Shown here in pieces: positions 17,501-20,500 of a stretch of DNA of 64,000 bases. The notes below the pieces were generated by a model that was not told the DNA's origin, made no database searches, and saw only the letters and a program-made list of their open reading frames with translations. The translations under genes were made by a program, and so were the position numbers. Origin of the DNA: Carcharhinus amblyrhynchos (taxonomy: Eukaryota); assembly GCA_965287045.1 (NCBI GenBank), contig OZ336903.1, positions 1,178,001 to 1,242,000 of the forward strand, written 5' to 3'. How positions within the stretch are numbered: the first letter of the stretch is position 1; the number at the start of each line of letters is the position of its first letter.

Positions 17501-20500
17501 CGAATGATGCTTCAGACCTCCAACGAATTTGCGGATTTTCCCCGCTGTCGATCCAGCTTCCCGCTTCCACCTGTAATGTCTCATATTATCCCAGGGTTTG
17601 TTCAGATGCAGGACTCACTCGATACTTGACTGGATTTCGACCTGACCTGTTGCATCAGGCGGCCAATAACTGTTGGTTTATTTCTGCATTTTACAGAGGC
17701 GGTGAAGCTGAGACTGGCGAATGGGCAGAGTCGGTGCGCTGGGAGAGTGGAGATTCACTACAGGGGACAGTGGGGGACTGTGTTTGGTACTCTCTGGGAC
17801 CAGCGGAACGCCGATGTTGTGTGTGGGGAGCTGGGCTGCGGGACCGCGCTCTCTGCACCCCGCGGGGCTCACTTTGGGGGAGGATCCGGACTCATTGTGA
17901 CGTCAGATGTTCAGTGCAGGGGGACCGAGACCGCCCTGCGGGAATGTCTCTCAGCGCCATGGGCTAACCACCGTCACTATGGCGTTGCGCACCCCTATGA
18001 TGCCGGCGTGATTTGCTCAGGTAAAAAAAACACAACATACCTGTCCATCATCTGCAGCCTGCTCTCAGGGAAAGGGCGGATAAGGTATTCAGAGACTGTA
18101 CACAGTCGTAAAGAGAATGGAGACTATTTTCAGTATTCTGAAAAGTGAAGCTTTGTTCCATTAATATCAGGATTTAAGTTTATAATAAAGTAACAGCAAT
18201 GAGAGTGATTAACATTTGCCACAACCGTGCACAGGCCCGCTGTGTCCGTGAGCTGAGCGCTTGCTGTTAGCAATGTTCAGGAGAGGAGTTGTTCACTCCT
18301 GGTTCCTCACTGTTCAGTTCCGAACACCATTCAACAAATAATGAATCATCCCAGGGCCACACAAATCCTGGATAACAATCAGGTTTCTGCTGACCCACCG
18401 TTTACCTTCATCTATCCAAAGCATTTGTGTTTCTGCTATGTTAACTTACCTCCAGATCACCCGATTCTTAGTATTTTTTTTGCATCGAAGCCCGGGAGGA
18501 GGTGGTCGAGGGAGGCTCGGGTTTGCTAATGTATCCCGTTGTTGCCTGTGGGGAGCCAAAAGGTCAGGCATGTTTTGATCAGCTGGCTGTGTAAAGAGGT
18601 ACATTTAATGGAAGTCCGGACCATTCTGCTTTCTGTCAGAATTGGCGGCTGTCTCTGAATTAAATCCGGGTGTCTCGGTCCATGTGTTTGACATTTACTG
18701 ACTATTGATTGCGGAGGCCATAGAGCGCTTATCCACTCACTGCGGCTACTTTCAGAGCAGCAATCAGTGGCCAGATTGAAGGTGTTCCAAGAGCGGAGTG
18801 AGGATGGGAAGGGTCTGGAGGAGAATCATGCGGACTGGAAACTTCCCTCTATTCTTCCCTCGCCACTAATTCTTCCACAGCTGCTGAATTGTTCCAACAT
18901 TTTCTGATTTTGTGTGAGAGGGGACTGGCTGGATATCCCCTGTCTCTCCAGGCGTGTCGTTTTAATAGCTGTCATATAAATCCTTCTCCCAAAATGTTTG
19001 ATACTATTTGGAAACTTACCTCCGTTTTACAGCCTGAATCTGATGAATACCAACTGTTCCTATATGATTTCCCCCCTTTCCCCACCCCGTGTTTTGTTGT
19101 CGGACGAGTTTACCTTTAGTCTGTCAGCGGGAGAAATTAGAAATGTCATTGCGAGAATGTTCCATTGCATTTGAATAAAATGTGCTGGATCAATTTGTTC
19201 AGGAGGTTGTATTTCGAACAAATGTGTGGCTGTCAATACTTCTCCGGAACGAAATGAAGAAAGAATAGTTTTTTTTTAACATTTAAAGCTGCAGATTTCA
19301 CACAGTGTAAACTGATAGAAGGAGATGTTGTCCAGACTCAGTAGCCAGGAGCATGGGGCACTCCCACTGGAGTGTTTTCCAGAACAGGAGATCCTTTCAA
19401 GGGTGATGTTCCCCGAACTGTTCACCCCATTCCAGATATGGACTGAACAATGTTCTTGAAACTTGAAGCAGATATTCCCCCCTTTCATATTCCAAATAGC
19501 AATGCGAAAACTCCTGAGGATTTTTATTACATTTTACACGTGGCCCTTATATTTTAGTGATCTGTGCACATGGACCTTTTGTAATGCTCGAGTGTTGTGT
19601 GTACATCTCCATTTAGACATTCTGGGATGTATCATTACATTTCTGCTTGAAAAAAAATCAGAACGTTCATTCTTAACACGTTTCAGCGCCGAAAAGAAAT
19701 AAAGAATGTTGATTTTGTTTGATGTCTCGCAGTTAATCCGTCCCTGTGCAAACAATTATATTTGGTATTGATTCAGGCCGGCTTGTTTCGAATTCTGATA
19801 TTTCCCGTCCCCAAACGTTAGTGGACAGCTTAACTCAGAATTTATTGAGATAAACCAGCAGTCGATTGAATTTAAGGGGGAATTGGGAAGAGTGTTCCAA
19901 GGGAAAAGCTAAAAAAACTGAACATGTGCCGTGGGGAGAAGAAACACTGACATAGATTGAACGTGATGAAGGATCTTTAATTATAGAATTTCTTAATGCA
20001 GAAGAAGGCCATTCAACCCGTTGAGTTTCACCGACAGATGTCCCAACCTGGTTGGACCCCCCATTTTTACCGCAATAATTTCCCTAAAAAACACATATTT
20101 ACATTAAAGGACAACTGAGCGGAACCAGATTCAGAACCATTCATGATAGAATTTACTAAAACAGATTTGAGTTTTGTTTTGATAATAATTAGTGTTTTGT
20201 GATTTGTTGTTGTTCAGCCCACAGATTTCCAAAACTAGTATCCGGGCCTTCCCCATGCTCCGGCAGATTGGAGATCCATAACGATCGAGAATCTGGTACA
20301 GTGTGTGACCGTGACTTGGATTGGAATGCCGCCACAGTGATCTGTGCTGAGCTGCAGTGTGGAGTGGCCGTTTCCGTGAGAAAAGGGGCTTATTTTGGGG
20401 AGGGCGCTGGACTTATATGGAACGATAGATTTGCATGTAAAGGCAGTGAGGCAGACCTGATAGACTGTCCCCTTGTTCCTGTAAATCGGTCCGAGTGCAC

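What the first reader, a model, noticed from the sequence alone, without database searches (positions are those of the whole stretch)
17697..18020. Membrane-distal SRCR1 differs between paralogs almost only by replacement changes
Seen (counted by eye vs 60161-60475): about 16 amino-acid differences plus a 3-codon indel, but only about 4 purely synonymous codon differences. Changes cluster at GTL/DSD after WGTVF and at [31 protein letters not shown], and several remove acidic residues in A. Established: the distal a1 domain is the most variable part of bovine WC1, and acidic residues form cation/ligand sites in SRCR domains. Inference: diversifying selection on ligand specificity.
Basis: partly seen in the sequence, partly recalled or inferred. 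Interest (0 to 1): 0.75.

Follow-up and report, generated by a model that had tools for sequence, protein, structure and literature searches.

The report
Shark WC1-like receptor's variable tip domain
This exon encodes the outermost domain of a family of duplicated shark or ray immune receptors resembling cattle WC1; the two copies differ mainly on the ligand-binding face, but their excess of amino-acid changes is no more than chance and mostly reflects gene conversion.

Summary
The counts are right: 16 replacements, a 3-codon indel and 4 purely silent codons. They do not show selection. Omega is 1.34 (CI 0.58-3.3, P=0.54), not above SRCR2-6 (P=0.28). SRCR3 (19/4) and gene A's dead exon 7 (10/1) look the same. 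Silent divergence (0.08) is far below the introns (0.20-0.24), so the ratio comes from low dS, most likely exon-limited gene conversion. The placement is real: 6 of the 10 positions that bind cations in DMBT1 differ (P=8e-4), and in recent sevengill-shark paralogs SRCR1 differs at 17/104 sites against 12/622 elsewhere. The locus is a cartilaginous-fish array of 7-SRCR, YEEI-tailed WC1/CD163c-alpha-like receptors. Their first domain lacks the C2-C7 disulfide and the Asp-Asp-Glu calcium triad (0 of 43) and has hypervariable loops there. Gene A, which holds the finding, has lost exon 7 and its signalling tail, so it is a decoy or a young pseudogene. Diversifying selection is likely for the family but is not shown by this pair.

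The parts
17697..18020 (+). Gene A SRCR1 exon (the finding): 6-Cys SRCR lacking C2 and C7, C-terminal loop 3 residues longer than in B
   Evidence: Pfam PF00530 E 1e-28
60161..60475 (-). Gene B SRCR1 exon, the paralog compared
   Evidence: model folds as SRCR, best Foldseek hits DMBT1 domains, TM about 0.8
14536..14581 (+). Gene A leader (signal peptide) exon, intact ATG and GT donor
   Evidence: similar leaders in shark relatives P0129, P0272
16883..16915 (+). Gene A 33-nt phase 1-1 second exon
   Evidence: the same short peptide precedes SRCR1 in relatives P0288, P0255
20218..26247 (+). Gene A SRCR2-6 exons (20218-20532, 21548-21862, 22180-22494, 24065-24379, 25930-26247), all open with AG/GT
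26487..27132 (+). Gene A SRCR7 exon, dead: acceptor reads CG (26485-6), repeat inserted 26777-27109 with AGAT target duplication, C8 lost, donor reads TT (27133-4)
   Evidence: other copies of the inserted repeat at 24720-25033 and 38099-38419
27276..27314 (+). Gene A 39-nt Pro/Thr linker exon, intact
27500..27617 (+). Gene A transmembrane exon; helix intact, TAA stop at 27604-27606 right after it (TCA in B)
33844..33954 (+). Gene A cytoplasmic exon (IEYY motif); donor reads GG instead of GT
34477..34608 (+). Gene A cytoplasmic exon; Tyr of the YDD motif replaced by Ser (34494) and 2-bp frameshift near 34522
52243..57832 (-). Gene B SRCR2-7 exons (57832-57518, 56540-56226, 55913-55599, 54186-53872, 53108-52791, 52551-52243), all open with AG/GT
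51759..51876 (-). Gene B transmembrane exon, open
49099..49206 (-). Gene B cytoplasmic exon with the YEEI tyrosine motif; no counterpart in gene A (deleted)
46920..47642 (-). Gene B further cytoplasmic exons (47642-47532 with IEYY; 47051-46920 with YDD), open
4459..4504 (-). Leader exon of a third paralog (C), head-to-head with A; its body is inferred to lie left of the window

Best explanation
The exon encodes the membrane-distal domain of a cartilaginous-fish array of WC1/CD163c-alpha-like receptors: leader, seven SRCR domains, TM helix, tyrosine-motif tail (shown). The array evolves by duplication and exon-limited gene conversion, which keeps domain frameworks and silent sites alike while introns drift. 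Low exon dS is shown; conversion is inferred. That is why silent differences look scarce in SRCR1, 3, 4 and 7 alike. In SRCR1 the surface that holds Ca2+ in DMBT1 has been rebuilt: the C2-C7 disulfide and the Asp-Asp-Glu triad are gone, and the flanking loops are hypervariable and richer in aromatic residues (shown at protein level). Selection most likely keeps these loops different between paralogs so that each binds a different ligand, probably microbial, and signals through the YEEI tail as WC1 does on gamma-delta T cells (inferred by analogy). The A/B differences are a sample of that loop diversity plus some drift in A. A has lost its tail and is either a non-signalling decoy or a young pseudogene.
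For: Architecture and tail. YEEI fits the Y-(Q/E)-(D/C/E)-(I/L) motif of WC1/CD163c-alpha (PMC2906472 section 10). The tail profile finds coelacanth and turtle proteins named 'antigen WC1.1-like'. Low dS against introns: SRCR1 P=0.0012, SRCR3 0.0004, SRCR4 2.5e-6, SRCR7 1.1e-6. Identical runs of 135, 113 and 88 nt lie in exons. A's dead exon 7 differs at 14/290 against 37/179 in its flanks, P=2e-7. Ligand face: 6 of 10 positions differ, P=8e-4; face omega 5.8, P=0.006 on the exon's clock. Recent paralogs: Heptranchias SRCR1 17/104 vs 12/622 (P=2e-8) with 12 of 17 changes in the 26 loop positions; Chiloscyllium punctatum 13/104 vs 15/417 (P=0.001); Hemiscyllium 22/208 vs 29/520 (P=0.015); catshark 14/100 vs 32/513. 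No C2 in 43 of 43 and no triad in 43 of 43; Y/W/H/F make up 100/601 residues at variable loop columns vs 7/341 at other variable columns.
Against: No multi-sequence dN/dS test was possible; the other species are protein only. Face omega drops to 2.0 (P=0.14) on the intron clock. Variable-column enrichment also holds for SRCR6 (P=5.5e-6) and the dead SRCR7 (P=2e-4), so tolerance alone can produce it. Over all paralogs SRCR1 is not the most divergent type: mean identity 0.63 vs 0.58-0.75. SRCR6 equals SRCR1 in catshark (14/101) and exceeds it in this pair. Conversion of the 3' exons alone could make SRCR1 look divergent in recent paralogs. No mammalian WC1 sequence was obtained, and expression and cell type are untested.
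Confidence: 0.6

Rival explanations
1. Relaxed constraint plus patchy gene conversion: the loops vary because they are tolerant surface positions freed by loss of the C2-C7 bond, gene A is a decaying pseudogene, and no selection on specificity is needed.
For: Whole-domain omega is indistinguishable from 1 in all seven exons. A carries at least 7 lesions in its 3' part. A has Asn at the buried site-1 Asp kept as Asp in 41 of 43 relatives and D30Y in SRCR5 (Asp in 20 of 20). B also has radical changes (W25L in SRCR3, W82R in SRCR6). The dead exon 7 shows 12 replacement to 1 silent change.
Against: Recent Heptranchias paralogs differ at 10-17 SRCR1 sites but 0-2 in SRCR3-7, mostly in the same loops. 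One Carcharodon/Cetorhinus pair, taken as orthologs, keeps the loops almost unchanged, which pure tolerance does not predict. A's longer loop and L32, S69, A86, A97 and Y100 are shared with a separate record, P0167, so they are not decay. A's leader-to-SRCR6 exons (1981 bp) carry no lesion.
Confidence: 0.28
2. One reading: SRCR1 as a whole diverged between A and B under positive selection, visible as a domain-wide excess of replacements over silent changes and over other domains.
For: The point estimate of omega is above 1 (1.12-1.34), and there is a net loss of five acids in A.
Against: P=0.54 for omega>1 and P=0.28 against other domains. SRCR3 and SRCR7 are as high or higher. dN is half the intron divergence. 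Off the face omega is 0.99.
Confidence: 0.1
3. On gene A only: it is a maintained tail-less decoy (six SRCR domains, membrane-anchored with exon 7 skipped, or secreted) that competes for ligand without signalling, rather than a pseudogene.
For: All lesions fall 3' of SRCR6. Four tail lesions in about 470 bp against none in 1981 bp gives P=0.0013 by length. About 8 frameshifts would be expected in those 1981 bp had A been neutral along its whole branch. Exon 7 is phase 1-1, so skipping keeps frame.
Against: The stop at 27604 lies upstream of further exon junctions and should trigger nonsense-mediated decay (general knowledge). The tail may have died recently: the IEYY exon shows only 3 replacements to 6 silent changes, and at a quarter of the branch 2 frameshifts are expected (P0=0.13). 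Conversion can repair ectodomain exons. The splice-site contrast of 3/10 vs 0/15 is borderline (P=0.05).
Confidence: 0.4

Closest known systems
[quoted passage not shown]
   Same: Tandem multigene array of group B SRCR type I membrane proteins; most variable domain is the membrane-distal one with discrete variable regions; indels in that domain mark subtypes; Y-E-E-(I/L) tail motif.
   Different: Seven SRCR domains, not eleven; cartilaginous fish; orthology of SRCR1 to WC1 domain 'a' untested; no expression or binding data; one paralog has a dead tail.
CD163c-alpha/SCART and chicken/platypus WC1-like CD163 genes (PMC2906472)
   Same: Same tail motif class; SRCR2/3 group with two CD163 domains and SRCR7 with a later CD163 domain in the tree; expansion with homogenisation, which that paper ascribes to gene conversion.
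   Different: The paper has no fish or shark sequences ('shark' 0, 'fish' 0 occurrences). The shark first domains form their own clade of 39 rows (SH-aLRT 96) in a tree without mammalian WC1.
DMBT1/SALSA SRCR domains (PDB 6SA4, 6SA5, 6SAN, 8J8D; PMC7043408)
   Same: Same fold, 54-59% identity, TM about 0.8; buried site-1 aspartates kept (43/43 and 41/43).
   Different: DMBT1 is secreted and binds through a conserved Asp-Asp-Glu Ca2+ site; here that site is absent and hypervariable, and C2-C7 is lost. The database label 'DMBT1-like' on these shark proteins does not fit their TM and tail.

Membership tests
SRCR superfamily, group B | Single-exon SRCR domains with 6-8 Cys in the group B pattern | tested here: met
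   PF00530 E 1e-28 and 7e-32; one exon per domain, phase 1-1; SRCR1 has C1, C3-C6, C8 and lacks the C2-C7 pair, an allowed variant (PMC2906472)
WC1/CD163c-alpha clade | Type I membrane protein with a Y-(Q/E)-(D/C/E)-(I/L) cytoplasmic motif | tested here: met
   Gene B has TM and YEEI; relatives have YEEI. Gene A does not meet it: exon deleted, stop after TM
WC1/CD163c-alpha clade | Tail homologous to WC1/CD163c-alpha tails | tested here: inconclusive
   Tail profile found 36 proteins; 23 of 36 were named or looked up and include coelacanth (E 1e-11) and turtle (E 5e-5) 'antigen WC1.1-like', alligator and Labeo; no mammal among them. These names are automatic
WC1 | N-terminal domain falls in the WC1 domain 'a' clade | not testable with these tools
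   No mammalian, chicken or platypus domain 'a' sequence was returned; the tree lacks it. That WC1 a1 also lacks C2/C7 is recalled, from no call
WC1 | Multigene array whose first domain is the most variable | tested here: inconclusive
   Met in recent paralogs of Heptranchias, Chiloscyllium punctatum and Hemiscyllium; tied with SRCR6 in catshark; not met in the window pair or over all paralogs
WC1 | Eleven-domain a-[b-c-d-e-d]-[b-c-d-e-d'] layout | tested here: not met
   Seven domains in A, B and relatives P0123, P0255, P0288, P0289
WC1 | [quoted passage not shown] | not testable with these tools
   No expression or binding data obtained
DMBT1-type calcium-bridge SRCR | Site-2 triad D1019/D1020/E1086 | tested here: not met
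   G-T-Y in A, D-S-N in B; all-acidic in 0 of 43 relatives

The most novel reading that the evidence does not exclude
A WC1-type germline-diversified lymphocyte co-receptor array is ancestral to jawed vertebrates. Sharks, rays and chimaeras carry it with a first SRCR domain whose calcium site has been turned into antibody-like hypervariable aromatic loops under diversifying selection, shuffled between paralogs by conversion, and paired with tail-less decoys such as gene A.
Probability: 0.3. Interest if true: 0.65.

Novelty: new member of a known kind. Interest (0 to 1): 0.38.

Why it matters
WC1-like arrays have been described in cattle, pig, chicken and platypus. A shark array with the same tail motif and a variable tip domain would push this innate-plus-T-cell receptor design back to the origin of adaptive immunity and give a testable marker for shark gamma-delta T cells. 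The pair is also a clear caution: in arrays under gene conversion, 'almost only replacement changes' appears even in a dead exon and is not evidence of selection.

Tried and rejected
No genome is held for this window, so no further paralog DNA and no codeml-type site model. Sequencing-run search: 24 runs listed, no RNA holder on record; no reads were laid, so expression, exon-7 skipping and allelic variation remain open. Metagenome scan: 2 distant loci at 43% and 27% identity, not used. The first homolog search was crowded by long DMBT1-like proteins; only 4 of the 120 listed were cartilaginous fish. The ESM Atlas gave generic SRCR clusters only. The careful tree did not finish; the quick tree was used. 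WC1 alignments in supplements were not readable and may bear on the domain 'a' question. Earlier scan notes: none. No tRNA gene in the window. Rejected: domain-wide positive selection from the pair; 'loss of a calcium site in A only' (B and the family lack the triad too); 'the 3-codon insertion is decay in A' (shared with P0167 and P0174); a hidden SRCR exon in the conserved intron block (no match); A-biased decay at conserved columns (A-only 10, B-only 19, P=0.14).

Full report
Observation. Both are SRCR domains (PF00530). Over 104 aligned codons they differ at 16 amino acids and 4 purely silent codons, with a 3-codon indel. The count is exact.

Is it more than chance? Not as a ratio. About 225 of 312 sites are replacement sites, so 20.5 replacement to 6.5 silent changes is close to neutral: Nei-Gojobori omega 1.12-1.32, Fisher P 0.32-0.46. 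A codon likelihood model gives 1.34 (95% range 0.58-3.3; P=0.54), against 0.78 for SRCR2-6 together (LRT P=0.28). The other exon pairs show amino-acid/silent counts of 21/7, 19/4, 6/2, 19/9, 30/13 and 10/1 for SRCR2-7. SRCR1 is therefore neither the most divergent domain (16/104 vs 105/617, P=0.7) nor the one with the highest omega.

Why silent changes are scarce. Aligned introns of the two genes differ at 1268 of 6193 kept columns (JC 0.24; 0.20 on both sides of SRCR1). One poorly aligned intron contributed only 264 of its 722 columns. SRCR1 has dS 0.08 and dN 0.097, both well below that. Silent divergence is significantly below the intron level in SRCR1, 3, 4 and 7 (P 0.0012, 0.0004, 2.5e-6, 1.1e-6) and not in SRCR2, 5 and 6. 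The longest identical runs are 135 nt in SRCR7, 113 in SRCR4, 101 in an intron block and 88 in SRCR1. The clearest case is exon 7 of gene A, which is dead (below) yet differs from B at only 14 of 290 bases, against 37 of 179 in its flanks and remnant (P=2e-7). Selection cannot hold silent sites in a dead exon, so exon-limited gene conversion is the likely cause (inference). The apparent omega above 1 comes from a small denominator.

The locus. The window holds two inverted 7-SRCR genes, A (+) and B (-), and the leader exon of a third, C, at 4504-4459 (-). The closest named relatives are cartilaginous-fish proteins (74-75% to Heterodontus and Heptranchias first domains). In a quick tree of 81 domains the first domains of sharks, rays and chimaera form one clade (39 rows, SH-aLRT 96); A, B and two unnamed records form a subclade (98). 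B has an intact TM exon and three cytoplasmic exons with YEEI, IEYY and YDD motifs; its leader lies beyond the window (inferred). YEEI fits the motif shared by WC1 and CD163c-alpha (PMC2906472, section 10 read). A profile of the TM and tail found 36 proteins; 23 of 36 were named, among them coelacanth and turtle 'antigen WC1.1-like' proteins, and no mammal.

Gene A is broken at its 3' end. Exon 7 has lost its acceptor (CG), carries a 333-bp repeat insertion with a 4-bp target duplication, and has lost C8 and its donor. A TAA follows the TM helix at 27604; the YEEI exon is deleted; the next donor reads GG; the YDD tyrosine is a serine; a 2-bp frameshift follows. The leader, second exon and SRCR1-6 (1981 bp) are intact. 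Four tail lesions against none upstream gives P=0.0013 by length. About 8 frameshifts would be expected upstream had A been neutral along its whole branch, but only 2 for a quarter of it (P0=0.13), and the IEYY exon is still conserved (3 replacement, 6 silent). A is thus either a tail-less decoy or a young pseudogene, about even odds; expression was not obtained.

The positions are not scattered. DMBT1 SRCR8 binds cations with ten residues (PMC7043408, passages read), and its numbering is collinear with B, with D34, D37, D70 and V71 as anchors. Six of the ten differ between A and B (P=8e-4); the same test gives 2, 4, 0, 2, 6 and 0 of 10 for SRCR2-7, P from 0.03 to 1. Omega on these ten codons is 5.8 (P=0.006) on the exon's own clock, but 2.0 (P=0.14) on the intron clock, so the result depends on whether the face was converted with the rest. 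Ten of the 16 differences fall in the top-quartile variable columns of 23 other shark and ray first domains (P=6e-4), but this also holds for SRCR6 and the dead SRCR7.

Independent evidence from other species (protein only). Recent Heptranchias paralogs differ at 17/104, 10/104 and 15/104 SRCR1 sites, against 12/622, 3/311 and 10/311 in the other domains; 12 of 17, 7 of 10 and 13 of 15 changes lie in 26 loop positions defined before these sequences were compared (three pairs from three genes, not independent of each other). Chiloscyllium punctatum gives 13/104 vs 15/417 and Hemiscyllium 22/208 vs 29/520. Catshark gives 14/100 vs 32/513, with SRCR6 as variable as SRCR1; its short second domain was left out. 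Five Cetorhinus paralogs could not be used, as only one had a first domain. Against: across all paralogs the first domain is not less conserved than types 2, 3, 4 and 7. One Carcharodon/Cetorhinus pair, probably orthologs, keeps the loops. Record P0167 combines B-type residues with A's longer loop, which suggests segment shuffling.

How it likely works. Among 43 unique first domains none has C2, none has the Asp-Asp-Glu triad, the buried site-1 aspartates are kept (43/43 and 41/43), and variable loop columns are richer in Y/W/H/F (100/601 vs 7/341) (one 8-Cys catfish domain was dropped before the count). The conserved calcium bridge has been replaced by a variable patch. The likely function is direct binding of different microbial or self ligands by different paralogs, with signalling through the tyrosine tail, as for WC1 (PMC5949365, passages). 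Shown: anatomy, lesions, low exon dS, face enrichment, SRCR1 excess in recent paralogs. Inferred: conversion, selection, ligand, cell type.

Known and new. [quoted passage not shown] WC1-like genes were extended to chicken and platypus (PMC2906472, passages and sections 9, 10), and a CD163-like gene marks a cod T-cell subset (PMC9276791, passages). I found no paper on a shark array: WC1+shark+SRCR returned 0, and searches listed nothing on it (search listings only); the library lacks most subscription journals. Automatic annotations already call some members 'antigen WC1.1-like'. Membership in WC1 proper is untested, because no domain 'a' sequence was obtained; that WC1 a1 also lacks C2/C7 is recalled only. 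Supplements that could not be read may bear on this.

Verdict. Observation confirmed; the pairwise argument for selection fails; the family-level idea of a diversified ligand face is probably right (0.6). New member of a known kind; interest 0.38.

Noticed in passing
window 26487-34608 (+): Gene A has a dead exon 7 and at least four tail lesions while leader to SRCR6 is intact: a possible tail-less decoy paired with signalling gene B.
   Followed up: partly
window 18635-19010 (+) and about 59352-58975 (-): Intron block between SRCR1 and SRCR2 with 1-8 differences per 100 bases between A and B amid about 20% divergence, including a 101-nt identical run; no SRCR coding match. A recent conversion tract or a regulatory element.
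   Followed up: partly
window 4459-4504 (-), 1-5821: Leader exon and first intron of a third paralog head-to-head with A; 1-1395 matches 62647-63998, so the array continues left of the window.
   Followed up: partly
window 25930-26247 (+) and 52791-53108 (-): SRCR6 is the most divergent exon of the pair (30 aa, dS 0.33) with an unalignable upstream intron, and is also variable in catshark paralogs: a second variable domain or an exon taken from a more distant paralog.
   Followed up: partly
window 56226-56540 and 52791-53108 (-): Gene B has radical changes at conserved core positions (W25L in SRCR3, W82R in SRCR6), so B may also be under relaxed constraint.
   Followed up: no
window 26777-27109; copies at 24720-25033, 38099-38419: A SINE-like repeat of about 330 bp inserted into coding exon 7 with an AGAT target duplication; family name not tested.
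   Followed up: partly
window about 39400-39750 (+) and about 44820-45170 (-): Downstream non-coding block seen by eye to be far more alike between A and B than its surroundings; possibly 3' UTR or regulatory.
   Followed up: no
window 17697-18020: SRCR1 is the most GC-rich exon (0.63 vs 0.50-0.54; introns 0.42-0.47), compatible with GC-biased conversion.
   Followed up: no
P0171, P0234: A bony-fish SRCR domain (Scleropages) and an unnamed record also lack C2 and sit next to the shark first-domain clade (SH-aLRT 86).
   Followed up: no
window 10712-11299; 6254-7373; 41688-42999: An assembly gap of 588 N between genes C and A, and tandem-repeat arrays between the genes.
   Followed up: no
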